A stretch of 64,000 nt of DNA, from IMG/VR virus record IMGVR_UViG_2851976983_000001, positions 1-64,000 of that record. One strand, given 5' to 3'. Positions 3,109-61,815 of the stretch are shown here, in pieces. The stretch is from a virus. Its lineage: Duplodnaviria > Heunggongvirae > Uroviricota > Caudoviricetes. The translations under genes and the position numbers were made by a program. Below the pieces are notes generated by a model. The model saw only the letters and a program-made list of their open reading frames with translations, searched no databases and was not told the origin of the DNA. Positions within the stretch are counted from its first letter, which is position 1; every line of letters starts with the position of its first letter.

Positions 3109-3531
3109 ATGAAATACTCGCTTCTCCCTCTACTAACGTTACCAGTGTTGATGCTTACCGCGTGCCAATCACGCCCAATATCAATCCATGACGCCAAACC
3201 AGCACCGCAGGCCAAAGTGTTCAAGTATCAAAGCGCAGCGCCAGCTACGTTGGTGGTAATGAGAGACACAGGTTTTGTAGGAGCTGGATGTGATGCTTCC
3301 ATTTTCATCAACGGCGAAACTGTCGCAAAACTGGCTACAGGCGAAAAAGCGACTTTCCATTTAAATGCCGGAGAATTAATTGTGGGTGCATCTCTTGAAG
3401 GTGCAGGTTTATGTGCTCTAAACCCCGCTCGTCAAGAGCGAGAAACGACTCTGAAGAATGGAGACACAAAAGCGTTCAGGGTGTTCACCAGCAATTCTGG
3501 TGACATCGACATTCTGCCAACAACTCTGTGA
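3109..3531 (+). CDS. putative lipoprotein
   Basis: Internal Met start MKYSLLPLLTLPVLMLTAC gives signal peptide plus lipobox LTAC; the longer track ORF from 3067 is probably an N-terminal over-extension. Confidence 0.55.
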   Translation: MKYSLLPLLTLPVLMLTACQSRPISIHDAKPAPQAKVFKYQSAAPATLVVMRDTGFVGAGCDASIFINGETVAKLATGEKATFHLNAGELIVGASLEGAGLCALNPARQERETTLKNGDTKAFRVFTSNSGDIDILPTTL

Positions 3532-3535
3532 TGAC

Positions 3536-4060
3536 ATGACAACCAAAGATATTACCTACGGTATCCAAGCTGAACTCTGGCCGCGAGATTACACTAACGT
3601 TGAAAAACTACTGATGTTCTGGCGCAGAGAACAAATTCCTGTAAGGGTCACTCTCGAAGATGGTCAGGCGTTTTGCATGTACGTTTATGGCCTCATGCCA
3701 TCTCGCAACAAAGTTGACCTTTGCCCAGCCCCTTTTGACAAAGAAAATCGTATAAGGCTCCCACTTGAACGCATTAGTACAATTGAATCAGGTGTGGTTG
3801 ACAGTATCGCTCACGATTTCAAAGGTCGATTAACAGTTCACCCTGATTATGTCGATAATCGGCCATCACGCCGCGATTTTTTTGCAATTTGCAACCAAGC
3901 CTACAAAGCAAACAAATCTATAAGGGTGTACATGGCGGATGGCCGTGAAATTGAGGGGGTGTCAGCAGGCGCAGATGCTTGTCAGGTTACACTACGTGTC
4001 GAGAACGGTAGAAAAATAGTTGTTTTGTTCGATTGGGTTGAACGAATTTTGCCTTTTTGA
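3536..4060 (+). CDS. hypothetical protein (174 aa)
   Basis: Track ORF 3458..4060 overlaps the lipoprotein gene; first in-frame ATG after the lipoprotein stop is 3536 (MTTKDITYG...). Confidence 0.45.
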   Translation: MTTKDITYGIQAELWPRDYTNVEKLLMFWRREQIPVRVTLEDGQAFCMYVYGLMPSRNKVDLCPAPFDKENRIRLPLERISTIESGVVDSIAHDFKGRLTVHPDYVDNRPSRRDFFAICNQAYKANKSIRVYMADGREIEGVSAGADACQVTLRVENGRKIVVLFDWVERILPF

Positions 4061-4063
4061 GTT

Positions 4064-4372
4064 ATGAAATCGATATTGTTACCACCATTATTTTTACTTT
4101 GCTCAGTTGCGGCAAATGCAATGGACTATAAGCCTGTCATTCAGTCGCTGATGAATGACGTGTGCTCAACGTCTCAGAATGTATCAGTTTGCATGTATCA
4201 ATTTTCGGCAGCCGTAAAAGCAGGAAAAGCGATAGGTGAGAATGTGGAACTGTGTAAGAAAGTGGCAAATGAAGAACGGGCAATGTTGGATTGCGAATCT
4301 AGCGAGTCATCGGCACAGTTCGTTGATGCGCTATTTGACACCAATCGTAAGGCTGTAGAGTCTGTTCAATAA
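4064..4372 (+). CDS. secreted hypothetical protein
   Basis: 102-aa ORF with N-terminal signal-like segment MKSILLPPLFLLCSVAANA. Confidence 0.5.
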   Translation: MKSILLPPLFLLCSVAANAMDYKPVIQSLMNDVCSTSQNVSVCMYQFSAAVKAGKAIGENVELCKKVANEERAMLDCESSESSAQFVDALFDTNRKAVESVQ

Positions 4373-4655
4373 ATCTATAAGGTTAATAACCGGCTAAGTC
4401 CGGTTATTATTTTTCACATCACTTCTTTATATCTACAAATCAAATAACCTAAATATATATAAGGTCGAAAGCCGGAATCGATTATTTATTTAGGGAACAC
4501 CTTCGACGATCTCGCTTTTATTTCTAGGACTTTCATCCCTGCAAAAAATTTTAAAAAAACACTTGCAATCTTTTTTCGCGTATCGATAATTGAACTCGTC
4601 GAAAGCGAAGACGCTAACGACAATAAATTTTAAATTTACATAAGGAAAAATTATC

Positions 4656-5306
4656 ATGGCTAACATTATCATTTCTAAAAAGTCCATCATTGAAGCTGCA
4701 TCTATTGTATCCGACGAGCTGCGCGAAAAAGCAGATCTGGCAACTCAAACATATAACGAACATTATAAAAATGGTACGCACACTAAAGCAGACAAAGCAA
4801 ATATGCAAGCTGCGACCACTAAACTTGCTTACTTCATCAACAACGTTGTAAACGCTGTAGAAGACGAAAAATTATGCTCTGTTTTTTACTATGCGATTAA
4901 AGCAAGCAAACAAGCGCCAGAAGTATTTTTCCGTGATGCAATGACTAATAGTTATTCTCTGGAAAAACTGGTTTATCTGGTTAAATCAATTAAATCTGGT
5001 AAATGCGTTTATTCCATCGCTGATATGTCAGGATCTCGTGTATTCGCTTTAATCGATATGATTAACGACGAGATCGACACGTTCACCAATGGCGCTGTTT
5101 TCGATTTAATGAATGAAGCTAAAAAAGCGTGTGAAATTAAATTGGACGCTGGCTATACTCAAGCCAACCAGTTGATCAATCTTTGCGAACGTCTTGGACT
5201 TGTTGAAAAAGTCAAAGGAGCTGGGAGCGCGAAAGCTGGTACTCAGCAATATCGCTTCATTAAAAATGATTTCTACAATTATTTAGCTGATGCTTTCAAA
5301 GCGTAA
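4656..5306 (+). CDS. hypothetical protein in AT-rich island
   Basis: 216-aa ORF; AT-rich codon usage unlike neighbours; followed by hairpin AGCGCCCATTATGGGCGCT. Confidence 0.5.
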   Translation: MANIIISKKSIIEAASIVSDELREKADLATQTYNEHYKNGTHTKADKANMQAATTKLAYFINNVVNAVEDEKLCSVFYYAIKASKQAPEVFFRDAMTNSYSLEKLVYLVKSIKSGKCVYSIADMSGSRVFALIDMINDEIDTFTNGAVFDLMNEAKKACEIKLDAGYTQANQLINLCERLGLVEKVKGAGSAKAGTQQYRFIKNDFYNYLADAFKA

Positions 5307-5355
5307 TTAATGGAATCAAGCGCCCATTATGGGCGCTTTAAAGGAGCTTTAAAAA

Positions 5356-5559
5356 ATGGTCAGCTATGACAAGATCCGCGCGGAATATCGCGCAAAGTAT
5401 CGCGCTTATAAACTGGAATTAATCGATGATTTGATCGCGCAACGCGACCAATTAAATTTTACGTTTTCTGATTTGCTTAACAGCAAGCGAGATTGCAAGC
5501 GCAAACGTGAATACTTACGTTTAAGCGCATTAATCGGAAAACTTCAAAATTCTATTTAA
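5356..5559 (+). CDS. hypothetical small protein (67 aa)
   Basis: ORF with AAGGAG RBS 7 nt upstream; same AT-rich island. Confidence 0.4.
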   Translation: MVSYDKIRAEYRAKYRAYKLELIDDLIAQRDQLNFTFSDLLNSKRDCKRKREYLRLSALIGKLQNSI

Positions 5560-7752: not shown

Positions 7753-8148
7753 TTAAGCGAATACGCTTTCAGGGATTAAGGTGTCAGCAGGAATGCCGGA
7801 GGTAATGCGCAGACCATACTGGCCAATCCAGGTGGTGCTGGTGTTCAGGCTGGAGGCGAATACGGTGTTAACCATATTCATCATGGTTTCAAACACCTCT
7901 TCATCAACCTGGCGGAAGTAGTTCTCGATTTTCAGCAGCAGCGGGTCAGTTGCATCGAGAATGGACTGGTATTGAGTCGCGTACTCGCCGCCGGAGGCAT
8001 CACCTTTACGCACGATCGTACTGGCCTGGACTTCGGCACCAGTTTCGGTGTTGTACGTAACAACGGTGATTTTTGCCACATTCTTACCTTCGGCGGTTTC
8101 AGAGGCATAGTAAACATCAACTGTCAGTTTTTCGCGTTTAACGGTCAT
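7753..8148 (-). CDS. hypothetical protein (131 aa)
   Basis: ORF with palindrome GTAAGTATGTACTTAC upstream (8194-8211). Confidence 0.5.
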   Translation of the reverse strand: MTVKREKLTVDVYYASETAEGKNVAKITVVTYNTETGAEVQASTIVRKGDASGGEYATQYQSILDATDPLLLKIENYFRQVDEEVFETMMNMVNTVFASSLNTSTTWIGQYGLRITSGIPADTLIPESVFA

Positions 8149-9739: not shown

Positions 9740-10540
9740 ATGCTCACTCCTTCCAGAACGTTCTATACGGCGACTATTTCTGTTGGTGAATTGGGTGTGT
9801 TGTTTTCTCTGTCGGTGTATGTGGTTTCGTTAGTTTTGCGGTGATTCTTCTATGGGGTGTTCTCGTCGTTTTGGTGATTGTTCTTCTCCGTGTATGGAGT
9901 AATGGCAGGTTGGCGATTCCTTTCGTTATTGTGTTTGAGTTGTTTGTCTGGAGTGTGTGAAGGCTTTTGTAGTTATTCGTGTATTGGGTAATGGCGTTTC
10001 CCGTGATTGTTATGTTTCGTGTCTTTTGGGATTGAGAGAAACCTTGCGGTTACAGGCTTCGTTGGGGTTTCAGCGGTTCAGGTGTTTCTTCGCTGTTTGG
10101 GTAATGGCGTGTCGTGGGTATCGCGCGTATGAATGTTTTCGGATTGCCTGTGAAAGTTAGGTTGGTTGTCCGGTAGCCTGGGGAGAAGAGGTGGGTCTTT
10201 TCGGTAGCCTGCCATAAAGAGGTTGGTTGTTTTGGGAATGGCATATGTGTTATTTAGTTGTTTTGTTATGCCTGAAAATAAGTTGTTTATATGGTTGTGT
10301 AACGCAACGGGAACGATTTTGAGCGTGTGTTTTTGTTGGTAGTGTGTTGAGTCGTCTGTGGTGAAAATTGGACGCTGTGGCGCTGTCTGCTGCGTAGAAT
10401 TACGGGTATAAGAAGTGATGTGTGAAAACGTCAATTTTTTAGACCAAATCGGGTGAAAGCGTTGATGTTTCGTTGATCTGTTATTTAGTTGTTTTCTTGA
10501 TTGTATAAACAACTATAACTTATTGATATTTAAGGATGTG
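9740..10540. other. 0.8-kb non-coding region, strongly G+T-rich on the + strand
   Basis: Very few C on the + strand; degenerate internal repeats (GGGTAATGGCGT at 9980 and 10100; GGTAGCCTGG..GAGGTGGG at 10160-10245, related to 7000-7075); track ORFs here are low-complexity artefacts. Confidence 0.6.
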
Positions 10541-10631
10541 ATTGCGGGTATGGAAGGGGAGTAGTGGCGATCAACGGATTCTTATAGAAAAGAATCAAAT
10601 TGTGACCGCCATTATCAATAAGTTACAACCG

Positions 10632-11201
10632 CTAGTTGTTCAGATAAACATTTGGAACACGGACGTAGAAGTTCCTGTCGCCGGTAAGTTCCAGAGTAAT
10701 GTTAATGTCATTACCATTGTCTAGTGTAGCCGTTGCTCTATAGAACTTATCCGTCACCTTGTCCTCTATTGTCACCTTCATACATTTTGGTGCAGTCGAA
10801 CCGTTATTCTCTTTCAGAATAGTTGTCACGAGAGGGCAGGCTGCTTCTTCAAGAGCAACCTCGTCCTTGTGTGGGATGCCGATGAAGATAATCCAAGCCA
10901 GCGACGCAACGATTATGATAAATGGCACTCTGCTGCCTTTTGTAATAGTCGCGCGCTTCCAGAGATAGACAGGCAGGAGGAATACCCCCCATAGAATTGA
11001 AGGTGGTTCACAGCCAGACTCCGATAGAGCCATTCTGTCAGCTACTAACAAACCGATGGTAGTTACACCCCCAATTATAATAGCGTAATTGGTATACTCT
11101 TCCGGCGATACTCCAAAGAAGAAAGGCATGAACGCTAGAATCCACGCATAAATGTTATTCAGAGGTTTTGTTTGTTGGTTCTGGGTTTCCATCACATCCA
11201 T
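10632..11201 (-). CDS. integral membrane protein, hypothetical
   Basis: 189-aa ORF with several hydrophobic helix-length segments. Confidence 0.5.
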   Translation of the reverse strand: MDVMETQNQQTKPLNNIYAWILAFMPFFFGVSPEEYTNYAIIIGGVTTIGLLVADRMALSESGCEPPSILWGVFLLPVYLWKRATITKGSRVPFIIIVASLAWIIFIGIPHKDEVALEEAACPLVTTILKENNGSTAPKCMKVTIEDKVTDKFYRATATLDNGNDINITLELTGDRNFYVRVPNVYLNN

Positions 11202-14227: not shown

Positions 14228-15328
14228 ATGAGCGAGTCCAAATCGCCGGATGCCCTGAGAGCAATGGTAGCCGGTACGCTGGCTAATTTTCAGCACCCAA
14301 CCCTGAAACACAACCTGACTACGCTTAAAGCGTTACACCATGTTGCGTTGATGGATGACACACTGCATGTCGAACTAATCATGCCTTTCGTGTGGAATAA
14401 GCCTTTTGAAGACCTGAAAGAGCAATGTAGTGGTGATCTGCTCCGTATCACTGGCGCAAAGGCTATTGACTGGAAGCTGTCGTACAACATTGCCACGCTT
14501 AAGCGCGTCAAAAACCAACCAGGCATTAATGGCGTTAAGAACATTATCGCCGTCAGCTCAGGCAAAGGCGGCGTGGGTAAATCCTCCACGGCGGTAAACC
14601 TGGCACTGGCGTTGGCTGCTGAAGGTGCGAAAGTTGGTATTTTGGATGCCGATATCTATGGTCCATCAATTCCAACCATGCTGGGCGCGGAAAACCAACG
14701 TCCAACCTCACCTGACGGTACTCACATGGCACCTATCATGTCTCATGGCCTGGCAACCAACTCTATTGGTTATCTGGTCACCGACGACAATGCAATGGTG
14801 TGGCGTGGACCGATGGCCAGCAAGGCGCTGATGCAGATGTTGCAGGAAACTCTATGGCCTGATCTGGACTATCTCGTTCTCGATATGCCGCCGGGCACTG
14901 GTGATATTCAGTTGACGCTGGCGCAGAACATTCCTGTAACTGGTGCGGTTGTGGTAACTACGCCGCAAGACATCGCGCTGATCGATGCGAAGAAAGGCAT
15001 TGTGATGTTCGAAAAAGTCGAAGTGCCGGTACTGGGTATCGTCGAAAACATGAGTGTGCATATTTGCAGTAACTGCGGTCATCACGAGCCAATTTTTGGC
15101 ACCGGTGGCGCACAGAAACTGGCCGAGAAATACAACACGCAGTTGTTAGGCCAAATGCCACTTCATATCTCTCTTCGTGAAGATCTGGATAACGGAACAC
15201 CAACCGTTATTAGTCGTCCAGATAGCGAATTTACGGCTATTTATCGTGACCTCGCAGATCGCGTTGCTGCCCAAATGTATTGGCAAGGTGAAGTAATACC
15301 TGGCGAAATCGCATTCCGCGCAGTGTGA
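14228..15328 (+). CDS. apbC: Fe-S cluster carrier ATPase ApbC/Mrp
   Basis: P-loop SSGKGGVGKSS, CxxC pair (CSNCGHHEP); divergent from metG as in enterobacterial chromosomes. Confidence 0.9.
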   Translation: MSESKSPDALRAMVAGTLANFQHPTLKHNLTTLKALHHVALMDDTLHVELIMPFVWNKPFEDLKEQCSGDLLRITGAKAIDWKLSYNIATLKRVKNQPGINGVKNIIAVSSGKGGVGKSSTAVNLALALAAEGAKVGILDADIYGPSIPTMLGAENQRPTSPDGTHMAPIMSHGLATNSIGYLVTDDNAMVWRGPMASKALMQMLQETLWPDLDYLVLDMPPGTGDIQLTLAQNIPVTGAVVVTTPQDIALIDAKKGIVMFEKVEVPVLGIVENMSVHICSNCGHHEPIFGTGGAQKLAEKYNTQLLGQMPLHISLREDLDNGTPTVISRPDSEFTAIYRDLADRVAAQMYWQGEVIPGEIAFRAV

Positions 15329-15365
15329 TAAAAAGGCGGTGCATTGCACCGCCTAATCAGTTCTC

Positions 15366-15755
15366 CTACATCACGGGACAATCATCAAACTCGCCACTTC
15401 TTGCGTCGTTGATAATGTGAGTGATCACACCAAACACGGCATTGCTGCCCGTGCATCCATCGTCATCCTTTGGCAATGCTTCCTTCTTACCGGTTCTTAA
15501 ATCCTCCAGATGCTGACGTGGATACTTCCGGTATCTTTTTACGCGATATTCCCCATCCAGAGCGCATACAAGCAGAGAACCATCAACCGGGGTAAGTGAG
15601 GAATCGACCACCAGCAATGCACCCTGTAATATTCCCTCACGATGATGACTATCAGCTGCCCTCATGAAGTAGGTCGCTGAAGGATGTCTAATTATCTGCT
15701 GATCAAGAGAAATACGGCTCTCAGCATAATCCGCCGCAGGAGAAGGGAAGCCCAT
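15366..15755 (-). CDS. UmuD'-like S24 peptidase (HumD-like)
   Basis: GFPSPAADY, Ser in DS motif and Lys in RVKRY align with the UmuD catalytic dyad; no N-terminal cleavage arm, so UmuD'-like; LexA box 17 bp upstream. Confidence 0.75.
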   Translation of the reverse strand: MGFPSPAADYAESRISLDQQIIRHPSATYFMRAADSHHREGILQGALLVVDSSLTPVDGSLLVCALDGEYRVKRYRKYPRQHLEDLRTGKKEALPKDDDGCTGSNAVFGVITHIINDARSGEFDDCPVM

Positions 15756-15771
15756 AATACTCGCCTCTTAA

Positions 15772-15791
15772 TACTGTATATGCATACAGTA
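15772..15791. promoter_or_regulatory. LexA (SOS) box
   Basis: TACTGTATATGCATACAGTA matches CTGT-N8-ACAG consensus. Confidence 0.75.
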
Positions 15792-16417
15792 TATGTTGAA
15801 GCTATATATTTTTGAACTCTATCTCTTAAAAAAGATGTTAATAAGATGCTAACTATTGAAAGGCATAAATATATACAATTCCAACAAACGTTATTTTTAA
15901 CAAATTTTTTCTCTCCGTTGACTTTTGCGAAAGCCTTGTCTGGCCTAAATTGCGCGGAAGCTACTTTTTCCTTACAGAGTTATCCACAGAGTTATGCACT
16001 TGCATGTATAACCTATACACACTATCTTAATTCGCAAGACACTGATGTTGCGGTATTGAAGGTTCATTGGGTTAAAAATAGACATTAAAAAGCCCAGTTG
16101 ACTAGGCTGGGCTTTTTAAAAGGAAACAGAGTTTGCGGCTCTGTTCCTGAGCCATAAGTATCTGGCGACTGAATTAAGATTAACCGAATGTACTGGATTC
16201 ATCAAGAAACGTTGAGTGGTCATACCAGGTAATAATGGCCATTTACTAAACATCGTTGTTCTCAAAGAAGATTTAAGTCCAGGTTTTTGGTGACTCTAAA
16301 ACCTTACCTTAACTCGAAATCGTGCCGTAAGTATCTGGCGACTACAGATATTGCAACTGCAAAGGCAAGCCCAAAGGTATTTGCAGCTAGGCGCGATAAA
16401 ACTAAGTGAGGCCTGTT

Positions 16418-36319: not shown

Positions 36320-36883
36320 ATGGCGCTTTATAACTTCACTCTGACGCTCTCAGGCGTATCGTATGAGACGGAAGGACTGGAAGACGCGCTGTACCAAAAC
36401 GGCTGTGACGATGCGCTAATTTGCGCATATGGAAACTCCGTCTATGTAGAATTTGACCGCGAAGCACAATCACTTGATGCAGCTATCGCATCTGCGGTCG
36501 ACAATATTGAATCAGCCGGTATCGGTGCAATTGTTGAATCCGTCGACTCGGCTCTTGTGGGCTTAAGCGATATCGCGGAACTGACAGACCTGTCTCGCCA
36601 GGCAGTGGCGTTGCTCAAAGACGGTAAGCGCGGAAGCGGCGACTTCCCTTGCCCTGTACAACGCATAAAAGGCCAGTCTCCTCTCTGGGATTGGGCTGAT
36701 GTGGCTGAATGGCTCATGAATAACGGACGACTTAAAGAGGGCGATCAAATTGTCCAAAATGCCCGAACTTTGAGTAAATGGAATCTGGCGCTTCGAAACA
36801 GCGTCTCGAAAGATTTCAACGAAATAGAGCAAATTGCGGAGAAACTGATTAAACGCCGCAAAGATATTGCGAAATGCGCATAA
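36320..36883 (+). CDS. putative HTH DNA-binding protein (about 187 aa)
   Basis: Track ORF 36284..36883; start MALYNF preferred; HTH-like GLSDIAELTDLSRQAVALL. Confidence 0.45.
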   Translation: MALYNFTLTLSGVSYETEGLEDALYQNGCDDALICAYGNSVYVEFDREAQSLDAAIASAVDNIESAGIGAIVESVDSALVGLSDIAELTDLSRQAVALLKDGKRGSGDFPCPVQRIKGQSPLWDWADVAEWLMNNGRLKEGDQIVQNARTLSKWNLALRNSVSKDFNEIEQIAEKLIKRRKDIAKCA

Positions 36884-37212
36884 TGATGCCCGCCAATTGG
36901 CGGGCATCTGTTCTCTGTAAAGGTGTCTGGCATCGTCTGGTTCGTTAACGTTTACTAAACCAATGGTGACAAAAATTAGTTATCTTTGAAAAATAAAGGT
37001 TGCATGAAAAGAAGGGGTATGCGTTAATAGCATCGTTGGTTTGCAAGACAGACCTTATGTAAGCAGTTTTAGTAAAGCAGTCTCAGTTCAGTGTTATCTT
37101 CTGATTTCCCTTCTTCGTGAGTCTCCTCCTTAAGTGCCTAAGTAAGTCCCAATCTATACAGATCAAATTCTCGCCGCACTATGTGGCTCACAAAATTAAG
37201 AAGGTAATATCT

Positions 37213-55345: not shown

Positions 55346-56140
55346 TTACCAGGTAGCCCAGCCAGTCATTTTGTCCTGAGCGGCTTCGAACCGGTATGGT
55401 TCCAGTAAATCGTTGGCATGGTGGACGGCGTAGGATTTTGCCTCCTGTTTAATCATCGGCAGCTCGTTGGCCAGGCGTGCCACCTGCCCTGCAAAACTGG
55501 CGAGCACACCGTCACATGTCTGACCCGCGTCGACAATGATGCGCACCAGGTCTAAGTCGCTGCGGCACATATCGCAGATGATGCCGTATTCCACCTCACG
55601 AATGCGCTCAACGGCTTTTTTGGTATCGCCACTGACCACCAACTCCAGCAAACCAGGTGGGGTTGTCAGATCTGTAACGCGTTCGGTAACTTCAGGCAGT
55701 TCGACAATGCTCAGGAACGCCGCGATAGAAGGATCATCCTCTACGCCAGCCCTGCCTTTGATCGCGCGAAGAGTCGCGTCGACAATTTCCTCAAACCGTT
55801 CACCTTCATCGCACACTGCCTGATTGGTGTAGACAACGCGACCGTCGTACCATGCACCGGCGCGTACTTCGACCGTTGCGTCCTTCATTTTGCGAGTGAA
55901 CGCCACGAGTGCCGCGCGTTTCTGTTTAACACCAGGCAGCTCCGGGGACTCCCCAAAACGAACCCAGACCCGCATGTATTTCGAGCCTTCCGAAAGAGGT
56001 GCGGTGCTCACAGACGTGGCGATGTGCTCCAGCGCAGTCTGGATCGCCTCATCGATAATCTTCTGGCGCTCTTCTGTATCAATTTCTACGCCTGATTTGT
56101 CGATGATTTCGGTAACGGACTTCTGAATATCTGCTTTCAT
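55346..56140 (-). CDS. hypothetical protein (264 aa)
   Basis: ORF; palindromic TAAGTA-type motif upstream. Confidence 0.5.
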   Translation of the reverse strand: MKADIQKSVTEIIDKSGVEIDTEERQKIIDEAIQTALEHIATSVSTAPLSEGSKYMRVWVRFGESPELPGVKQKRAALVAFTRKMKDATVEVRAGAWYDGRVVYTNQAVCDEGERFEEIVDATLRAIKGRAGVEDDPSIAAFLSIVELPEVTERVTDLTTPPGLLELVVSGDTKKAVERIREVEYGIICDMCRSDLDLVRIIVDAGQTCDGVLASFAGQVARLANELPMIKQEAKSYAVHHANDLLEPYRFEAAQDKMTGWATW

Positions 56141-56323
56141 AAAGGTTCCTCAATTCCTTCGTCGAGCATATTCTTACAGAAATATAAGTATGTATCTACT
56201 TATCAATGTAGGCGTTTAGTTTCGTTTATAAAAAATGCTCTTAATCTTGTCCAGTTGTAGCTGTCAGGTCACTTCTATATGATTTCACTTAACTAATACG
56301 TTAAACACACAAGGCTTAGGTCT

Positions 56324-57376
56324 ATGACAACGTTGTCCAAAAACGTGATGCAACACAGGAAGGTATTGAAAGAAACTGGTTTGGCGTTTGCCAAATCTAT
56401 ACCGCTTGTTGGACCTCATATTGAGGCAGCGGAAAAAATGTTCACGTTGTTCTCAGAGATAAATGCGACGACTTGTCGTGATCGATTCAACCGTTACATT
56501 ATGGGCATTGGTGAAATTTGCGACGATGAGGTCGATATCTCAAGAGAACACTTTTCGGCGTTAGTCAAAAAGCTCGTGCTTGATGATGAAGACAAGAAAA
56601 CAGAATACTACATTCGCTTGACGGTAAGCCTAGCCCGCAGCAGCCTTAACGACGATGAAAAACTATTTTTTATCCACATACTGAGTGGGTTAACCTGCTT
56701 TGATATTGAATATGCGCGCAAACTTTACATCACAACAAGCTCGCCAATAAAAGGCTATAAATCAACTGTATTAGCCCAAGTTAGCCTCACATCACAAAAA
56801 AGTGGAATGGCTCTGAGATCGCTAAATAAGCTCATAACCTCGGGTCTCGTCTACGAAGACAGGGCTGGCGAGATCCAAGCGAACCCCATGTTCAAATTAA
56901 CAGATGAACTTGAGCGTCTTTTAGGATTTATTTTTCACAAGGATGATTTGGAGCCTGAAGCTTTATCTATTGAGCCAAAGGAAGAATACGACGTCATTAT
57001 CATTGAAAGCAGCGAAATCTATAGTGGGGCATATCCAAACAGCATTTATCGTAGTTTGAAAGCCGCCGGCATTAAGGTTTGCATAGAAAAAAATGAAGAC
57101 TGCATTACAACCAAGCTGGCAAAGTACTTCATCTCAGTCAAAACAGGGAGCGGACTCAATGGTGAAGGTGAGTGGATTGAATTTGGGCAAATTTACGTCC
57201 TCAAACGCCTAGATTCAAGCAGTAAACGTTTCTATGAAAATGAGCACAGTGAGACAGTCAGTATCAGCAATTTTAAACCTAAGGATAACGACCAAACATA
57301 TGATGCAAGTTTGCTAAATATAGCACTAAATAATATCGCTGCGTTTGTCCTGAACCGTCTGTCTCCCACAACTTAA
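56324..57376 (+). CDS. orphan hypothetical protein (350 aa), opposite strand, lower GC
   Basis: Only plus-strand gene between 45.8 and 61.0 kb; visibly AT-richer than flanks; own AT-rich upstream region; converges on primase stop with 1-nt gap. Confidence 0.55.
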   Translation: MTTLSKNVMQHRKVLKETGLAFAKSIPLVGPHIEAAEKMFTLFSEINATTCRDRFNRYIMGIGEICDDEVDISREHFSALVKKLVLDDEDKKTEYYIRLTVSLARSSLNDDEKLFFIHILSGLTCFDIEYARKLYITTSSPIKGYKSTVLAQVSLTSQKSGMALRSLNKLITSGLVYEDRAGEIQANPMFKLTDELERLLGFIFHKDDLEPEALSIEPKEEYDVIIIESSEIYSGAYPNSIYRSLKAAGIKVCIEKNEDCITTKLAKYFISVKTGSGLNGEGEWIEFGQIYVLKRLDSSSKRFYENEHSETVSISNFKPKDNDQTYDASLLNIALNNIAAFVLNRLSPTT

Positions 57377-57377
57377 A

Positions 57378-58562
57378 CTACACGAGTGACTCGATACCGA
57401 GCACTTTGCATTTTAACTCCAGCTGTTTGGAGTAAGGCTTGGCACGATAATAGGCTTTGAGGATCTGCTCTGGCGTCGCGTCGCCGGGGTCGAGACCTTC
57501 TTCGCCCAGACAGGCCACTTTGACATTTAGTCCGATGCTGGTGAGGCGTTTGGCCGCCGACATGGTGTTGCGGATCGCTTGCTTCTCGCTATCCCACATC
57601 ATGATGACGTTGCGTAATCCACGCGCCTTGAGCGTCAGGAACGCGCCCAACTGATCTTCAGCGTCCTCATTCATATTTCCGGACAAGTGCATCCCGAACG
57701 TGCCAATTGGCTCTACATAATCCCTCAGCGTCTTTTCGTCGAAGATGGCTCGCTTCACGCCCATTACGTCAAATGCCCCTTCACACACAACGACTGTTTG
57801 TTTCCCGACTGCGTTGTGGCCGTTGTAGAGAAACTTACCCGACGCCGGCAGCTGCATAGGGAAGAGATAACGGCGTTCTGCTGCACCGGTAATGTCACGC
57901 CCCTGGAAGGTCTTCATCACGCCATCCAGATCGTAAACCGGTATCAGGATGCGCATATCAAACACCTGCCCTTTGACCTGGTCTGTGTACGGATCGACGT
58001 ATGCGTGCTTGCCTTCGACGCAGTAACGCAGATCAAAGTATTTGGCCAGATCCGGGGAGATATGGCGCTCCACCAGATAATCAGGAAGACGACCGTCAAT
58101 GGGGAGTTCGTAATGTCGAGGGAGAGCTACTGGCCCTTCGAGTTCAACCTTGCTGGCCAGCACGACCTCTTCCTTCTTCGGCGCCCATCCTTGTGAGATC
58201 AGCGCGTTCTGCACATATTCCTCGAACTGTCGTCGTGATTTACCGCTGTAGTGCTTGAGGAAGACCAGCTTATTGAACTGAATCTCTTCGGGATGATCAC
58301 CAGCAAAGCATTTGCCGACGCCACTGGTCAGATTGAAATATACCTTCCAGTTGGAGCTGCCACATACCGGACACTCCTTGATATTCACTTCACGACCGCG
58401 AGCACTCACGCCTCCACGTCGATAAACGATACCTTCAGTGTCCAACCATTGTTCAAAATCTAATTCGGTAATTAGCTCTTTCAGCTCGCTCACGATAATT
58501 CCACTTTTAATAGGCAATATTGTGACCAACCTAAATGTTGATATAACATAAAGGCTCATGTG
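57378..58562 (-). CDS. DNA primase (zinc-finger plus Toprim)
   Basis: Zinc ribbon CPVCGSS...CFAGDH, Toprim VVVCEGAFDV; start set at MSLYVIS by the conserved AGAAAAACAC-ATG motif. Confidence 0.7.
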   Translation of the reverse strand, partial: HMSLYVISTFRLVTILPIKSGIIVSELKELITELDFEQWLDTEGIVYRRGGVSARGREVNIKECPVCGSSNWKVYFNLTSGVGKCFAGDHPEEIQFNKLVFLKHYSGKSRRQFEEYVQNALISQGWAPKKEEVVLASKVELEGPVALPRHYELPIDGRLPDYLVERHISPDLAKYFDLRYCVEGKHAYVDPYTDQVKGQVFDMRILIPVYDLDGVMKTFQGRDITGAAERRYLFPMQLPASGKFLYNGHNAVGKQTVVVCEGAFDVMGVKRAIFDEKTLRDYVEPIGTFGMHLSGNMNEDAEDQLGAFLTLKARGLRNVIMMWDSEKQAIRNTMSAAKRLTSIGLNVKVACLGEEGLDPGDATPEQILKAYYRAKPYSKQLELKCKVLGIESLV

Positions 58563-58640
58563 TTTTTCTTTTGTGGTTTGGCAAAAGAAAAGTTGTTTCA
58601 CCAATGAATCAAGCGTGGAGGTGTTCTCCACGCTTATTTT

Positions 58641-59981
58641 TTAGGTAACGTCTAAGATTCGCTCAATGAAGCGCATTTGTTCGAGTTTTTGTTTAACGCG
58701 AATGCTGATCCCTCCCTGCTGGTTACGTGAACCAGCAAAGTAGAGACGAGCCTCTCCTTTCGCTTCTTCTTCTTCGGTTTTGTTGATCGTTATTACCAGG
58801 TCAGCAATACGTACTTTTTCGATGTTGTCGGCGGCGTGCATCATTGTGGCAACTTCTGACGCGCCACCTTCACGGTTTGTCTGCGATGCCGTGATTCCAG
58901 CAACGTTATGTTTGTCATAAAGAGCACGTAAATCGGTGTAGATACTACGAATGTTGGCGCGATCATCACGAAGGTCATAACTGGCACGCATCAAATCTGC
59001 GTAGTCGACAACAACCATGTCAGGCACCATGCCGTTGGCTTTCATGCTGTTAAGCATACGGTCCAGATCTGCCGGTGACATACTTCCTGACGGACGCTCA
59101 ACCACCCACAAACTACCAATCCCCTTCGTGGCTCCCAACTCTGCCAACTTACGATGAACCTCATCGCGCCGTTCCACCAGCTTGGACATTTCCGTCTCCG
59201 ACAATCTTGCATCAAAACGGTCGGATAAAATGGTAGTGTGAACCTCCAGCGAGAGATACAGAACATTGTAGCCAGCAAGCGTTGCGTTTATGGAAAACTC
59301 ACCCATTGCGGTCGATTTACCGGATTTAGCGAACCCCATGAAGAGCACCATTTCACGCTTCGCCCAGCCTTTTTGGTACAGCAACCTATCGAGCAGAGGG
59401 AGTCCAGTTGTAATGCTGTTTGGCACATACTCCTCTGAAGCCTCATATTCACGCGCTTTCAATCGCTCACTTGCGGAGGTGTAGTAGTCATAGATTCCGG
59501 TCGCTTCGTTCGATCCAATCTGCTGAACCTTGGCCATGATTGCCATCGCCCCCTGAAAGTCGCCTTTCTCTTTCAGTTCAGCAGCCTTAATCAGAGCATC
59601 ATCAAACGCTACGCTTTTTGCGAAGGTTGATACCTGGTCAACCATGTACGAGGTATCGGACAATTTTTCTGCAAGGATGCGCTTAAACGCAGCAACAACA
59701 TCGGCGAATAGTTCCTCACGGATAGTCTTATCGCGTTTCGCACGCTTAAGCATATCCAGAATTGCAGATGAAGAGGGCGCGCTCTTGTACATACGGTAAT
59801 AGCCCGAAACCATATTAACCAATATGGCATTGGCCGCATTGGCAAATTGGCTAGGCACAACCAGATCTCCCGCACGAGTAAGAAACTCGTGATCACGACA
59901 AAAATATGCCGTCAGTCTGTTCTGGAAATCTTCATCAAACTCTTCGGACAGCCCGCGTCCTGTATGGCAAAGTTCGGTCAT
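58641..59981 (-). CDS. DnaB-family replicative DNA helicase
   Basis: Walker A GFAKSGKST, Walker B VVVDYADLM, ITASQTNR motif; 446 aa. Confidence 0.8.
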   Translation of the reverse strand: MTELCHTGRGLSEEFDEDFQNRLTAYFCRDHEFLTRAGDLVVPSQFANAANAILVNMVSGYYRMYKSAPSSSAILDMLKRAKRDKTIREELFADVVAAFKRILAEKLSDTSYMVDQVSTFAKSVAFDDALIKAAELKEKGDFQGAMAIMAKVQQIGSNEATGIYDYYTSASERLKAREYEASEEYVPNSITTGLPLLDRLLYQKGWAKREMVLFMGFAKSGKSTAMGEFSINATLAGYNVLYLSLEVHTTILSDRFDARLSETEMSKLVERRDEVHRKLAELGATKGIGSLWVVERPSGSMSPADLDRMLNSMKANGMVPDMVVVDYADLMRASYDLRDDRANIRSIYTDLRALYDKHNVAGITASQTNREGGASEVATMMHAADNIEKVRIADLVITINKTEEEEAKGEARLYFAGSRNQQGGISIRVKQKLEQMRFIERILDVT

Positions 59982-60024
59982 GTGCTTTCCTTTGTTTTTT
60001 AAACAAATTGTTTTCTAGTATTAG

Positions 60025-60765
60025 TTAATTAGATAGGGGATCAATAAACCGCCGTGCTTCTTCCAGTTCTTCTGGAAAGTGGGCGGAAATAAGGCGCTCT
60101 GGAACGATTTCCATTAGCCAGATAGCGGAGAAAATTGCGCGTATGCGCTTGCTGCGGGGGATGGTGCGTAAACGCTCCAGAATCCACTCAAAATAGCTTT
60201 CCTGGATCGGGTTGAACTGCATGTCTCCCATATGCTTAAAGCTAACCAGAGAGTCATCCAGACGGGTTGTTGCGCGTCTGGCTAATTTCTCTTCAAATAT
60301 CTCAATCAGTTCTGGCTGCCATAAATGCTGTGGGCGCGGCAGCTTGTCCCACAGCCGTCGTGCAGCTGCGGAAAGAACGGTGGAGATAAAGTAGTCGTAT
60401 GAGCAGCAATAGCGGTCAGCAAACTGGCGTGCTTTCCATAGAGACGTTTTATTGGCAGTCGACAACTCCTGATAAGGCAGGCGTTTTAACCCGGTGGTGA
60501 ACGGAGCTGTTTCAAAGTGTTCTCGACCGTGCGTCAGCATGATATTTGAGTACTGACGTTTGTATGCCTCCGTAAAAAGACAGGTGGCCATGAGAGGATG
60601 CATGTCGCGGTAATCAAACCACTTCGTCTCGAAGAGTTCAGCCTCGTCTTTACAGCGCGACAAACCAATGTTTTCAGCGACCCACTTGTCCATAACAGCG
60701 GTATTCCACTCTGTCATGAAGTCGTACTGGTCGTTGTCGATGGTATCGAAAAAGATTTGGCTCAT
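60025..60765 (-). CDS. hypothetical protein (246 aa)
   Basis: ORF; TAAGTA-type motif upstream. Confidence 0.5.
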   Translation of the reverse strand: MSQIFFDTIDNDQYDFMTEWNTAVMDKWVAENIGLSRCKDEAELFETKWFDYRDMHPLMATCLFTEAYKRQYSNIMLTHGREHFETAPFTTGLKRLPYQELSTANKTSLWKARQFADRYCCSYDYFISTVLSAAARRLWDKLPRPQHLWQPELIEIFEEKLARRATTRLDDSLVSFKHMGDMQFNPIQESYFEWILERLRTIPRSKRIRAIFSAIWLMEIVPERLISAHFPEELEEARRFIDPLSN

Positions 60766-61047
60766 GTGGCTCGCCTGGTAGGTAGTTACTTACTTATCAC
60801 AATGAGCGAATGATAGCGACTGGTGGCAGTTTTTGGAAGTGGAAACGGAAGGGAGTTGTTCTGGTGGTGTCTTTTAAAAGACCTGCTTCCGTATATATTT
60901 AATAAGTTACTTATTATTTATATATACAGAAGCAGGCATAACTTGTCGTCTTAGACGCCCAGAAGCTCTACACTTTGAGCCTGTTAAATTGATTAAAAAC
61001 TTATGTGTAAAATAGAACGCATTAGTCAGTAGCTAAGAGATGCAATA

Positions 61048-61815
61048 ATGGACGATTTATCGGTATACGCGAGATCATTGGATAAGGCTAAATACTATGT
61101 TTACTGTCTCTATGATACAGAAGACAAGATGAAAAGACCGTTTTACATAGGAAAAGGCAAATCGACTCGTTGTCTCGATCACATCAAGTATCCCGATGAC
61201 TCTCCCAAATCCATGCGGATCAAAGAACTTTTGGCTAATAAAAAATTAGGCATAGATATACTTCGTCATGGTATGGATGAAACCACAGCCAAACTTGTTG
61301 AGGCGACATGCATCGACCTTATGGGGGTCGGAGAGCTTACGAATAAGGTTCGAGGAAGTGGTTCCATGATGGGCAGAATATCACTGGACGCCTACCATCA
61401 CTTAGTGCTGCAAGAGGAAACTGAAATTGCTCCTGAGCACGCCGGTCTTGCCTTCCTGCTAAACAGCACCTACAAGTCAGGAATGTCCGCTCTGGCATTA
61501 TATGAAGCTACGCGTGGCGTATGGGCAAAGGTTCCAAGAGACGAGAATCTCAAATATGCCTACGCTACATATGGTGGGCTGATAATGGAAGTTTATCAGA
61601 TTGAATGCTGGGTCAAAGCCGGTTCTCAGCAGTACTTTACAAGGGATATAGCTCTTGGCCCCGACACAAAACGTTATGAATTTGTTGGCAGAATAGCCGA
61701 TGAGCATATTAGAAAACTGTATGTAGGCAAATTAATCAAGAAGCCACCAAGCTACGGTAGCCCTTTTGTGAAGGTTGGGGTGGTTAGGACTGAACATAGT
61801 GTTAGCGCGGCATAA
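61048..61815 (+). CDS. GIY-YIG nuclease-domain protein (free-standing)
   Basis: N-terminal YYVYCLY...FYIGKGKSTR...DH resembles GIY-YIG; opposite strand to neighbours; own terminator. Confidence 0.55.
   Translation: MDDLSVYARSLDKAKYYVYCLYDTEDKMKRPFYIGKGKSTRCLDHIKYPDDSPKSMRIKELLANKKLGIDILRHGMDETTAKLVEATCIDLMGVGELTNKVRGSGSMMGRISLDAYHHLVLQEETEIAPEHAGLAFLLNSTYKSGMSALALYEATRGVWAKVPRDENLKYAYATYGGLIMEVYQIECWVKAGSQQYFTRDIALGPDTKRYEFVGRIADEHIRKLYVGKLIKKPPSYGSPFVKVGVVRTEHSVSAA

What the first reader, a model, noticed from the sequence alone, without database searches (positions are those of the whole stretch)
56324..57376. Opposite-strand, lower-GC orphan gene wedged between replication genes
This 350-aa ORF is the only plus-strand gene in a long run of minus-strand genes. 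It is visibly AT-richer than its flanks, has its own AT-rich upstream region, and ends 1 nt from the primase stop with no terminator. I recognise no motif. Its position and composition fit a recently acquired moron, which in phages often encodes defence, exclusion or anti-defence functions.
Basis: partly seen in the sequence, partly recalled or inferred. Interest (0 to 1): 0.55.

Follow-up and report, generated by a model that had tools for sequence, protein, structure and literature searches.

The report
Divergent Abi-alpha-like defence candidate in phage-plasmid
The opposite-strand, AT-rich gene wedged between the replication genes of this pHCM2/SSU5-type phage-plasmid is real, optional cargo sitting in a gene-swapping hotspot, and it is a previously unrecognised, distant relative of the Abi-alpha abortive-infection proteins of Gram-positive prophages, so it is most likely an anti-phage gene that current defence-finding tools miss.

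Summary
ORF 56324-57376 (+, 350 aa) is the only plus-strand gene between about 45.8 and 61.0 kb. Its GC is 0.41 against 0.51-0.55 in the flanks. Its upstream region has GC 0.34. It stops 1 nt from the primase stop, and no terminator was found.

It is not an orphan. The window is a pHCM2/SSU5-type phage-plasmid, and the protein is 100% identical to a hypothetical protein of S. Typhi CT18 pHCM2. It belongs to a small family: PHROG 22938, about 90 clusters at 50% identity.

The gene is optional cargo in a hotspot between a conserved 264-aa gene and the primase. Relatives have this slot empty or filled with unrelated plus-strand genes.

Three routes link the family to Abi_alpha (PF14337/DUF4393, prototype Abiα):
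- 25 of 85 members hit the Pfam model.
- The family HMMs pick the DUF4393 protein of phage φNM1 without prior information.
- A profile-profile comparison gives E about 1e-4.

The structure model (pLDDT 89) shows a helical core, a MarR-like winged helix, and a fast-evolving C-terminal binding-type domain. Family members elsewhere sit in prophage moron regions and next to known defence genes.

Best reading (about 0.55): a single-protein abortive-infection or exclusion gene. It is a new variant of a known kind, and the function is untested.

The parts
56215..57420 (.). Variable cassette ('slot 1') between the conserved 264-aa gene and the primase. The left junction is about 56215. The right junction lies within the last ~14 codons of the primase.
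   Evidence: Alignments of the window with an empty site (E. hormaechei), a Sel1-cargo site (C. freundii) and SSU5. Annotated relatives.
56141..56323 (+). AT-rich upstream region (GC 0.34). It contains a tentative sigma-70 promoter: TTGTAG (56255-56260), 17-nt spacer, TATGAT (56278-56283). An AAGG/AGG ribosome-binding site lies at 56311-56320.
   Evidence: GC. The hexamers were read directly from the sequence. The TTGT...N17...TATGAT arrangement is kept in SSU5 although the surrounding sequence has diverged. The consensus scan did not call it, because the -35 matches only 3 of 6, so it is inferred.
56324..57376 (+). CDS of 350 aa. Soluble, no TM segment. It is 100% identical to WP_000209842.1 of pHCM2.
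   Evidence: Purifying selection on codons 1-215 (dN/dS about 0.08 against SSU5).
56324..56743 (+). Residues 1-140: helical Abi_alpha-like core. It carries the family's most conserved polar motif, D87-D-E89-x-x-K92-x-x-Y-Y96 (nt 56582-56611).
   Evidence: AF2 model. Conservation across 85 members. Alignment to Abi_alpha covers residues 88-179.
56744..56938 (+). Residues 141-205: MarR-like winged helix-turn-helix. Recognition helix ...LRSLNKLITSGL...; L170 and G174 are nearly invariant; local pI 9.3.
56969..57373 (+). Residues 216-350: fast-evolving alpha/beta domain with an LptE / PelC / class-II aaRS anticodon-binding-like fold and no conserved catalytic residues. Inferred to be the sensor or specificity module.
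57378..58631 (-). DnaG/Toprim-type primase (backbone), convergent with the cassette gene.
   Evidence: Pfam and PHROG.
55346..56140 (-). Conserved 264-aa backbone gene (phrog_4248, function unknown), divergent from the cassette gene.
   Evidence: Conserved in all relatives examined.
61048..61815 (+). Second plus-strand, lower-GC cargo gene in the same module: PD-T4-3-type GIY-YIG protein ('slot 2'). It shows that this module hosts defence morons.
   Evidence: PADLOC PD-T4-3 E = 1e-23. Pfam LEM-3 GIY-YIG. Relatives carry a PDC-S31/DUF2971 gene at this position.

Best explanation
The gene is a single-protein anti-phage (abortive-infection or exclusion) module. The phage-plasmid carries it as exchangeable cargo.

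Shown:
- It is an intact gene under purifying selection, with its own AT-rich upstream region. It lies in a recombination hotspot of the replication module of SSU5-supergroup phage-plasmids.
- Its family is a divergent branch of the Abi_alpha (DUF4393) superfamily.
- The protein has three modules: a helical Abi_alpha-like core with a conserved DDExxKxxYY motif, a MarR-like winged helix, and a hypervariable C-terminal domain with a non-catalytic binding fold.
- Family members travel as single genes in prophage moron regions, plasmid TA/RM regions and chromosomal defence islands.

Inferred:
- During plasmid-state lysogeny the gene is transcribed from its own promoter, antisense to the lytic replication operon. 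DUF4393 genes of Gram-positive prophages are arranged the same way, and the φNM1 one is the most abundant prophage protein in lysogens.
- The fast-evolving C-terminal domain recognises a component of an invading phage.
- The conserved Abi_alpha core plus winged helix then acts on a nucleic acid or a partner protein to stop the infection at the cost of the cell, as reported for Abiα (premature lysis, no progeny).

The biochemical step carried out by the Abi_alpha core is unknown, both for this gene and for the prototype.
For: Homology to Abi_alpha:
- 25 of 85 family members hit Pfam Abi_alpha at E <= 1. The best is 8e-7; one member scores 29.7 bits against a gathering cut-off of 29. The runner-up family has 8 hits and the rest are singletons.
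- HMMs built from the family pick gp17 as the top hit among 40 φNM1 open frames. gp17 is the DUF4393 protein A0EWI8, by the preprint's accession series and by RefSeq annotation of its orthologs.
- hhalign of the family against nine bona fide phage Abi_alpha proteins gives E = 1.1e-4, probability 57%, over 85-90 co-linear columns.

Cargo status:
- Empty or alternative-cargo sites in relatives.
- The allele is in 7 of 252 E. coli genomes that carry the backbone.
- Saturated synonymous sites against SSU5 while the flanks have dS 0.08-0.38.

Context elsewhere:
- Next to a PD-T4-6/mad6-type kinase, E = 7e-57.
- Next to a PDC-M36A-like gene.
- Next to a C5 methyltransferase plus a REase-like ATPase in a Lelliottia chromosome.
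- Between ccdAB, vapBC and a restriction endonuclease on IncF plasmids.
- In prophage moron regions beside Bro-N/ORF6N/pRha and SLATT_5 genes.

Other support:
- The same module of this window carries PD-T4-3 in a second slot.
- Architecture and evolution: high-confidence model (pLDDT 88.9); conserved N-terminal part and hypervariable C-terminal part with discrete allelic types.
- DUF4393 genes in Staphylococcus, Streptococcus, Roseburia and Bacillus phages are also opposite-strand genes beside replication or antirepressor genes.
- The Abiα phenotype is described in PMC6356687. Lysogenic abundance of the φNM1 homolog is described in bioRxiv 10.1101/2025.10.23.684294.
Against: - The window protein itself does not hit PF14337 even at E <= 1. 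The link is transitive or profile-level, and the profile-profile probability is only about 55-57%.
- There is no hit in PADLOC. A DefenseFinder survey found no defence system in pHCM2-like S. Typhi phage-plasmids (bioRxiv 10.1101/2025.09.12.675607).
- No experiment exists for any member of this family.
- Guilt by association and hotspot residence also fit anti-defence genes, addiction modules and inter-element competition genes.
- The C-terminal domain differs from that of canonical Abi_alpha proteins.
- The winged helix would also fit a plain regulator.
- The AlphaFold database library was unavailable, so structural similarity to a bona fide Abi_alpha model was not tested.
Confidence: 0.55

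Rival explanations
1. It helps the phage-plasmid compete with the host or with other mobile elements. It could be an anti-defence protein, a superinfection-exclusion factor or an incompatibility factor against related phage-plasmids. It would not be an abortive-infection defence that protects the host.
For: Hotspot cargo with discrete allelic types and a hypervariable binding domain is equally typical of anti-defence and exclusion genes. The SSU5 supergroup is reported to carry anti-defence genes such as Rad (bioRxiv 10.1101/2025.09.12.675607). The gene's position inside the replication module could suit early expression.
Against: The gene is on the strand opposite to the replication operon, with its own upstream region, which is the arrangement of lysogeny-expressed morons. 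Homologs occur alone in a bacterial chromosome next to an RM-like cluster and on non-phage IncF plasmids. An anti-defence gene for a phage's lytic cycle is not expected there. The detectable homology is to a validated defence family.
Confidence: 0.15
2. It is a winged-helix DNA-binding regulator or plasmid-maintenance accessory factor. It could be a partner of KfrA-like proteins or a repressor that helps keep the lytic replication genes silent during plasmid-state lysogeny.
For: A MarR-like wHTH is present. On IncF plasmids a 40%-identical homolog overlaps by 4 nt with an upstream KfrA_N DNA-binding gene in the maintenance region. Here the gene converges on the primase gene without a terminator, so its transcription could interfere with the primase.
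Against: The KfrA-like gene is present in 483 plasmids, but only 46 have the family member behind it. Others have unrelated small genes there. No KfrA partner is present in phage-plasmids, prophages or the chromosomal copy. Most backbone relatives lack the gene entirely and still persist as plasmids. A hypervariable C-terminal domain is unusual for a housekeeping regulator. No MarR Pfam hit and no MarR-type dimerisation architecture were found.
Confidence: 0.12
3. It is a selfish addiction or toxin-like module, or a gene whose product has no current function. It would persist in the hotspot by hitch-hiking.
For: It neighbours toxin-antitoxin systems on IncF plasmids. It is rare among relatives that carry the backbone.
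Against: No antitoxin-like partner gene, no repeats and no RNA family are present at the locus. The N-terminal two-thirds are under strong purifying selection. The frame is intact in all approximately 40 identical copies and across 90 clusters of consistent length. The fold prediction is confident.
Confidence: 0.06

Closest known systems
Abiα (EF2833, E. faecalis V583 prophage 6) and other Pfam Abi_alpha/DUF4393 proteins, e.g. gp17 (A0EWI8) of S. aureus phages φNM1/80α
   Same: Both are single-gene cargo of temperate elements. Both are typically on the strand opposite to neighbouring replication or antirepressor genes. They share a core of about 90 residues, 'acidic triplet-x-x-basic-x-x-aromatic pair ... 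LS/TxLTxxDI ... SLxxLxxxGLI', detected by Pfam pile-up and profile-profile alignment. Both are soluble proteins with no recognisable enzymatic domain.
   Different: The window protein does not reach the Pfam threshold. It is 350 aa, against about 260-300 aa. Between the N-terminal GP-x-hEA-like motif and the core it appears to have extra helices. Its C-terminus is a 130-residue LptE/anticodon-binding-like alpha/beta domain, instead of the short KGxIxxTxFGxxFxxxC tail of canonical members. It occurs in Enterobacterales phage-plasmids, plasmids and prophages rather than Firmicutes prophages. Function is untested.
PD-T4-3 (GIY-YIG single-gene defence) in the same element, 61048..61815
   Same: Plus-strand, lower-GC, single-gene cargo in a variable slot of the same replication/partition module. 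Relatives carry a different candidate defence gene, PDC-S31/DUF2971, in that slot.
   Different: The sequence and fold are unrelated. PD-T4-3 has a recognisable nuclease domain. The target has no catalytic signature.
BstA (prophage-encoded abortive-infection protein of Salmonella and other Gram-negatives; PMC8585504)
   Same: It works like a plausible analogue: one prophage-encoded protein with a DNA-binding module that aborts infection by heterologous phages. According to the paper's abstract, BstA localises to sites of phage DNA replication.
   Different: No homology is claimed or detected. From my own knowledge BstA has a KilA-N-type domain, and no such Pfam domain is found here. BstA's self-immunity DNA element (aba) has no identified counterpart here. 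A direct sequence comparison was not run.
MarR/SlyA family winged-helix regulators
   Same: The central ~65 residues match the wHTH of SlyA/MarR at the sequence-profile level (E = 8e-5) and at the fold level.
   Different: There is only one module in a 350-aa three-domain protein. There is no MarR Pfam hit and no MarR-type N/C-terminal dimerisation helices. The equivalent element is also present in canonical Abi_alpha proteins (SIxNLxRLGLI), so it is part of that family's core rather than an added regulator domain.

Membership tests
Pfam Abi_alpha (PF14337 / DUF4393) | The protein itself matches the PF14337 model at or above the gathering score (29 bits) | tested here: not met
   The window protein has no PF14337 hit even at E <= 1. 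Of its family, only P0103 reaches 29.7 bits.
Pfam Abi_alpha (PF14337 / DUF4393) | Remote (superfamily-level) homology of the family to bona fide Abi_alpha proteins | tested here: met
   25 of 85 members hit PF14337, against 8 for the next family. All alignments that were inspected are co-linear. A blind HMM search picks DUF4393 gp17 of φNM1. hhalign of the family against 9 phage Abi_alpha proteins gives E = 1.1e-4 and probability 57%. Strength is moderate, not decisive.
Pfam Abi_alpha (PF14337 / DUF4393) | Canonical architecture: about 260-300 aa with the conserved C-terminal KGxIxxTxFGxxFxxxC tail | tested here: not met
   Canonical alignment A8, compared with a 130-aa alpha/beta C-terminal domain in the target family.
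Abiα-type abortive infection system | Single gene carried by a temperate element, placed as an opposite-strand moron | tested here: met
   No conserved partner gene across phage-plasmid, prophage, plasmid and chromosomal contexts. Opposite-strand placement here and in Gram-positive phages.
Abiα-type abortive infection system | Abi phenotype: infected cells die or lyse early, with reduced efficiency of centres of infection and reduced plaquing | not testable with these tools
   Requires phage-challenge experiments. The phenotype is described only for EF2833 (PMC6356687).
Abiα-type abortive infection system | Expression during lysogeny | not testable with these tools
   Only a tentative promoter was read from the sequence. 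The φNM1 homolog is abundant in lysogens (bioRxiv 10.1101/2025.10.23.684294).
Known defence systems in PADLOC-DB v2 / DefenseFinder | Match to any curated defence-protein model | tested here: not met
   PADLOC gives 0 families at E <= 1. A published DefenseFinder screen reports no systems in pHCM2-like S. Typhi elements (bioRxiv 10.1101/2025.09.12.675607). DefenseFinder itself was not run here.
MarR-family transcriptional regulators | Winged helix-turn-helix fold | tested here: met
MarR-family transcriptional regulators | Pfam MarR/HTH_27-type match and a ~150-aa dimeric architecture | tested here: not met
   No MarR-clan Pfam hit. The protein is 350 aa with three modules.
KfrA-associated plasmid maintenance operon | Conserved genetic linkage to a kfrA-like gene | tested here: not met
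   Linked in 46 of 483 plasmids that carry the KfrA_N gene. Unrelated genes follow kfrA elsewhere. No kfrA-like gene lies next to the window gene or next to the prophage and chromosomal homologs.
   Only SSU5 among 50,697 phage records has a homolog. About 135 of 750 flank-matching plasmids have one. This allele is in 7 of 252 E. coli backbone carriers. Empty sites exist.

The most novel reading that the evidence does not exclude
This family would be the first Abi_alpha-type defence of Enterobacterales, in a new three-module form: the conserved Abi_alpha core and winged helix as the executing part, fused to an exchangeable, hypervariable LptE/anticodon-binding-like sensor domain. That would give the long-'cryptic' S. 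Typhi plasmid pHCM2 a phage-resistance function. It would also give a tractable E. coli/Salmonella model for the unknown mechanism of Abi_alpha, with the wHTH pointing to action on nucleic acid. Finally, the primase-proximal slot would be a defence-gene hotspot whose other occupants are candidate new defence genes: the Sel1-repeat protein, the DUF4145 protein of Y. pestis pMT1 and the 388-aa Klebsiella protein.
Probability: 0.4. Interest if true: 0.65.

Novelty: new variant of a known kind. Interest (0 to 1): 0.5.

Why it matters
- pHCM2-type phage-plasmids are widespread in S. Typhi and other clinical Enterobacteriaceae. They are usually called cryptic, and a recent DefenseFinder survey found no defence system in them. 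A hidden abortive-infection gene would give them a selectable function and would matter for phage therapy and phage typing of these pathogens.
- The mechanism of Abi_alpha is unknown even for the prototype. A Gram-negative relative with a confident three-domain model, a clear conserved motif (DDExxKxxYY), a DNA-binding-type module and naturally swapped C-terminal alleles offers direct mutational and domain-swap experiments.
- The replication module of SSU5-supergroup elements contains two cargo slots. One holds known defence genes (PD-T4-3, PDC-S31). The other holds this family and several uncharacterised alternatives, including a gene on Y. pestis pMT1. That makes it a compact place to look for new defence genes.

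Tried and rejected
Direct sequence and family scans
- Pfam, NCBIfam, PADLOC and PDB sequence searches of the window protein found nothing useful. The weak DUF6086, MapA and YppF hits were judged to be noise.

Structure searches
- BFVD gave no significant match.
- PDB Foldseek gave none at E <= 1e-3.
- The AlphaFold database library was unavailable.
- A PD-(D/E)xK reading of 'DDEDKK' was dropped because the motif lies in a helix-loop-helix region, not in a beta-strand core.

Collection searches
- The genome-contig scan with a degenerate pattern found no relatives.
- The two profile searches of the word-indexed protein database were capped at 8000 candidates. They added only a few new relatives, two of them annotated PF14337, and did not reach canonical Abi_alpha proteins.

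Tests for relatedness of neighbouring or alternative genes (all unrelated, hhalign probability 0.2% or less)
- The 388-aa Klebsiella slot-1 gene.
- The pMT1 DUF4145 gene.
- The 351-aa slot-2 gene of pHCM2.
- The 206-aa gene that follows kfrA on pO157-type plasmids.

Other
- KfrA as an obligate partner was rejected.
- RNA families and repeats at the locus: nothing.
- Separate recent transfer of the cassette between the window and pHCM2: not supported. The whole 53.0-58.1 kb block is 98-100% identical.
Full report
**1. The observation**

An ATG-to-TAA ORF of 350 codons lies at 56324..57376 on the + strand. The first residues, MTTLSK, are conserved in all close relatives. The SSU5 reading frame also begins MTTLSKG, so 56324 is the true start and the shorter SSU5_041 annotation is probably truncated.

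In the ORF map, and in the annotation of a near-identical E. coli plasmid, this is the only plus-strand gene between about 45.8 and 61.0 kb.

GC is 0.414 (GC3 0.44). The adjacent genes have GC 0.51-0.55 (GC3 0.59-0.66). Measured against all 1053-nt windows of the 64 kb it sits at the 5th percentile, so the dip is clear locally but not unique.

The upstream intergenic region has GC 0.34. The stop codon is 1 nt from the primase stop, and no terminator-like hairpin follows.

**2. What the element is**

The region matches Salmonella phage SSU5 and hundreds of SSU5-supergroup phage-plasmids. The protein is 100% identical to WP_000209842.1, a 'hypothetical protein' of S. Typhi CT18 pHCM2. The same protein is on about 40 plasmids of Salmonella, E. 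coli and Citrobacter.

The neighbours are an ATP-dependent DNA ligase, two conserved genes of unknown function, a DnaG/Toprim primase and a DnaB-type helicase.

**3. The gene is exchangeable cargo in a hotspot**

Junctions. Alignments of the junctions show that conservation stops at about 56215 on the left. It resumes within the last ~14 codons of the primase on the right.

Occupants of the slot in relatives:
- Escherichia phage Cyrano and an E. hormaechei plasmid: 75-80 nt and no gene.
- C. freundii: a Sel1-repeat protein.
- Y. pestis pMT1: a DUF4145 protein.
- Klebsiella phage pJN2-26: an unrelated 388-aa protein.
- All of these cargo genes are on the plus strand.

Frequency:
- Among 50,697 phage records, only SSU5 has a homolog.
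- In PLSDB, 135 records have one, against 750 that match the flanks.
- In complete E. coli genomes, this allele is in 7, against 252 that carry the primase backbone.

Divergence. Against SSU5, the flanking genes have dS 0.08-0.38, but the gene's synonymous sites are saturated (pS 0.72-0.94). The two alleles are therefore old lineages placed into similar backbones by recombination. Against pHCM2, the gene is 99.7% identical inside a 53.0-58.1 kb block that is 98-100% identical. Identity then falls to about 80% in the helicase region.

Second slot. A second slot in the same module holds a PD-T4-3-type GIY-YIG gene here (61048..61815). SSU5, Cyrano, pJN2-26 and pHCM2 have a PDC-S31/DUF2971 gene at that position.

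**4. The family**

The protein matches phrog_22938 (function unknown) end to end. An exhaustive profile search of 1.84 billion representative proteins found 90 clusters, almost all 340-390 aa.

Conservation is uneven:
- Residues 1-215 are conserved (dN 0.19 against SSU5; dN/dS about 0.08).
- Residues 216-350 are hypervariable (dN 0.58).
- There are at least two C-terminal allelic types only 31-33% identical, while the N-terminal parts are 66-84% identical. One allele (P0006) has a third type.
- Across 85 members, the best-kept residues are D87, E89, K92 and Y96 (the motif DDExxKxxYY), L123, L170, G174, P211 and L245.

**5. Structure**

With the 85-sequence alignment, AlphaFold2 gives pLDDT 88.9 and pTM 0.83, and all five models are above 87. 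The modules are:
- Helices to about residue 140.
- A winged helix, about residues 148-192.
- A short linker (FHxxDLxP).
- An alpha/beta domain, residues 220-346.

The family profile matches SlyA/MarR 4mnu at E = 8e-5 over residues 124-211.

There is no TM segment. The wHTH part is basic, pI 9.3.

**6. Link to Abi_alpha**

The window protein does not hit Pfam. Its relatives do:
- 4 of 49, and then 25 of 85, members hit Abi_alpha (PF14337). The best is 8e-7, and one member is above the gathering score.
- The next family has 8 hits, and everything else is singleton noise.

An independent test used phage φNM1. A preprint states that this phage encodes a DUF4393 protein, A0EWI8. HMMs built from the target family were searched against all 40 open frames of the first 12 kb of φNM1. 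The top hit was gp17, at E about 0.02. By the preprint's sequential accessions, gp17 is A0EWI8, and RefSeq annotates its orthologs as DUF4393.

I then aligned nine bona fide phage Abi_alpha proteins. hhalign against the target family gives E = 1.1e-4, probability 55-57%, over 85-90 co-linear columns. The aligned region covers the acidic-basic-aromatic motif, the 'LSxLTxxDI' helix and the 'SLxxLxxxGLI' recognition helix.

I rate superfamily-level homology at about 85%. By the Pfam criterion, the window protein itself is not a member.

**7. What is known about Abi_alpha**

Abiα (EF2833, prophage 6 of E. faecalis V583) is a single 272-aa protein. It gives a classical abortive-infection phenotype with premature lysis against a Picovirinae phage. 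Its mechanism is unknown (PMC6356687). The φNM1 homolog is an antisense gene and is the most abundant prophage protein in lysogens (bioRxiv 10.1101/2025.10.23.684294).

In φNM1, StauST398-1, Streptococcus IPP23 and Javan36, Roseburia Jekyll and Bacillus phi4B1, the DUF4393 gene lies on the strand opposite to adjacent replication-initiator or antirepressor genes. The window gene has the same layout.

**8. Contexts of the target family elsewhere**

- Lelliottia chromosome: a 55%-identical copy stands alone beside a C5 methyltransferase, a REase-like HATPase/HEF_HK protein and a Response_reg_2 protein.
- Metagenome contigs: beside a PD-T4-6/mad6-type kinase (E = 7e-57), DUF3800, a methylase and IS elements; and beside a PDC-M36A-like gene.
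- Integrated prophages of Providencia and relatives: in the moron region between the tail genes and the tail-spike/lysis genes, next to ORF6N, Bro-N or pRha genes, and once next to a SLATT_5 gene.
- IncF plasmids: a 40%-identical copy follows a KfrA_N gene, between ccdAB, vapBC and a restriction endonuclease. The KfrA-like gene is present in 483 plasmids, and only 46 have the family member. Elsewhere unrelated genes follow it. The linkage is therefore positional, not functional.

**9. Mechanism and confidence**

The best explanation (confidence 0.55) is a single-protein abortive-infection or exclusion gene expressed from its own promoter during plasmid-state lysogeny. A tentative promoter, TTGTAG-N17-TATGAT at 56255-56283, is conserved in SSU5.

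In this model the hypervariable C-terminal domain is the sensor. The conserved Abi_alpha core and winged helix are the executing part.

The cargo status, the homology, the architecture, the selection pattern and the contexts are shown. Expression, the trigger, DNA binding and the phenotype are inferred.

The rivals are:
- Anti-defence or inter-element competition (0.15).
- Regulator or maintenance factor (0.12).
- Addiction module or no function (0.06).

**10. Novelty**

No paper in the searchable library mentions the protein, the SSU5 ortholog or the PHROG. PADLOC does not detect it. A DefenseFinder survey reports no defence systems in pHCM2-like S. Typhi elements.

This is therefore a new variant of a known kind: a divergent, three-module, Gram-negative branch of Abi_alpha. 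The interest is moderate. The class of finding, a defence moron in a hotspot, is expected. Its value lies in three things: it gives pHCM2 a candidate function, it offers a tractable model for an unsolved Abi mechanism, and it marks a compact hotspot that holds several uncharacterised alternatives.

Noticed in passing
window 61048..61815 (+); SSU5 L001 11647-12405; Cyrano L010 8545-9348; pJN2-26 L011 8575-9333; pHCM2 L017 9725-11605: A second cargo slot lies about 3.7 kb away. Here it holds a PD-T4-3-type GIY-YIG gene (PADLOC 1e-23). SSU5, Cyrano, pJN2-26 and pHCM2 carry a minus-strand DUF2971/PDC-S31 candidate defence gene there (2e-33 to 3e-41). pHCM2 additionally has an unrelated plus-strand 351-aa gene of unknown function.
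   Followed up: partly
L012 5094-5816 (Y. pestis pMT1); L002 2528-3781 (C. freundii); L011 3781-4947 (Klebsiella phage pJN2-26): These are alternative occupants of the same primase-proximal slot: a DUF4145 protein on the plague plasmid pMT1, a 417-aa Sel1-repeat protein, and a 388-aa protein. The DUF4145 and 388-aa proteins have only marginal PADLOC hits, and none of the three has an assigned function. All are plus-strand single genes and are candidate new defence or counter-defence genes.
   Followed up: partly
window 56184-56203: A perfect palindrome, ATAAGTA-TGTATC-TACTTAT, lies just upstream of the 264-aa backbone gene. It is invariant in the window, E. hormaechei, C. freundii and SSU5, while the sequence beyond it diverges. 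It is probably an operator or promoter element of the minus-strand operon, and it marks the left edge of the hotspot.
   Followed up: no
window about 58200-60900: The backbone is mosaic. Against pHCM2, identity drops from 98-100% to 73-85% starting inside the 5' part of the primase gene and continuing through the helicase and the 246-aa gene. Against SSU5, the helicase has saturated synonymous sites (pS 0.74) but 93% amino-acid identity. This points to recombination breakpoints within the replication module.
   Followed up: partly
L001 7095-8060 (SSU5_041): The deposited SSU5 annotation starts the ortholog 24 codons downstream of the conserved MTTLSK start (open frame from 7023). The annotated protein is probably N-terminally truncated.
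   Followed up: yes
window 3451-5501, 10151-11151, 15151-15851, 36651-37051, 44251-45201: These are other low-GC islands, down to GC 0.37. Some are as low as or lower than the target and may be further cargo genes. They were not examined.
   Followed up: no
L008 9284-15090 (Lelliottia sp. WAP21 chromosome): A three-gene cluster lies next to a family member: Response_reg_2 (574 aa), HATPase_c_3/HEF_HK (1034 aa, with a weak REase_II-like N-terminus) and a C5 DNA methyltransferase. It looks like a methylation-linked defence system that PADLOC does not name as a whole.
   Followed up: partly
L019 8828-9685 (φNM1 gp17); L020, L023, L026, L027: Canonical DUF4393/Abi_alpha genes of Staphylococcus, Streptococcus and Roseburia phages are consistently opposite-strand genes next to replication-initiator, antirepressor or methylase genes. 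Placement in or next to the early/replication module seems to be a general habit of this family.
   Followed up: partly
L016 4002-5415 and L004 7297-8978 (IncF plasmids): Downstream of a KfrA_N DNA-binding gene in the IncF maintenance region there is another variable position. 46 plasmids carry the target-family gene there. About 437 others, including pO157-type plasmids, lack it; in the one checked, unrelated 206-aa and 66-aa genes with 4-nt overlaps follow instead.
   Followed up: partly
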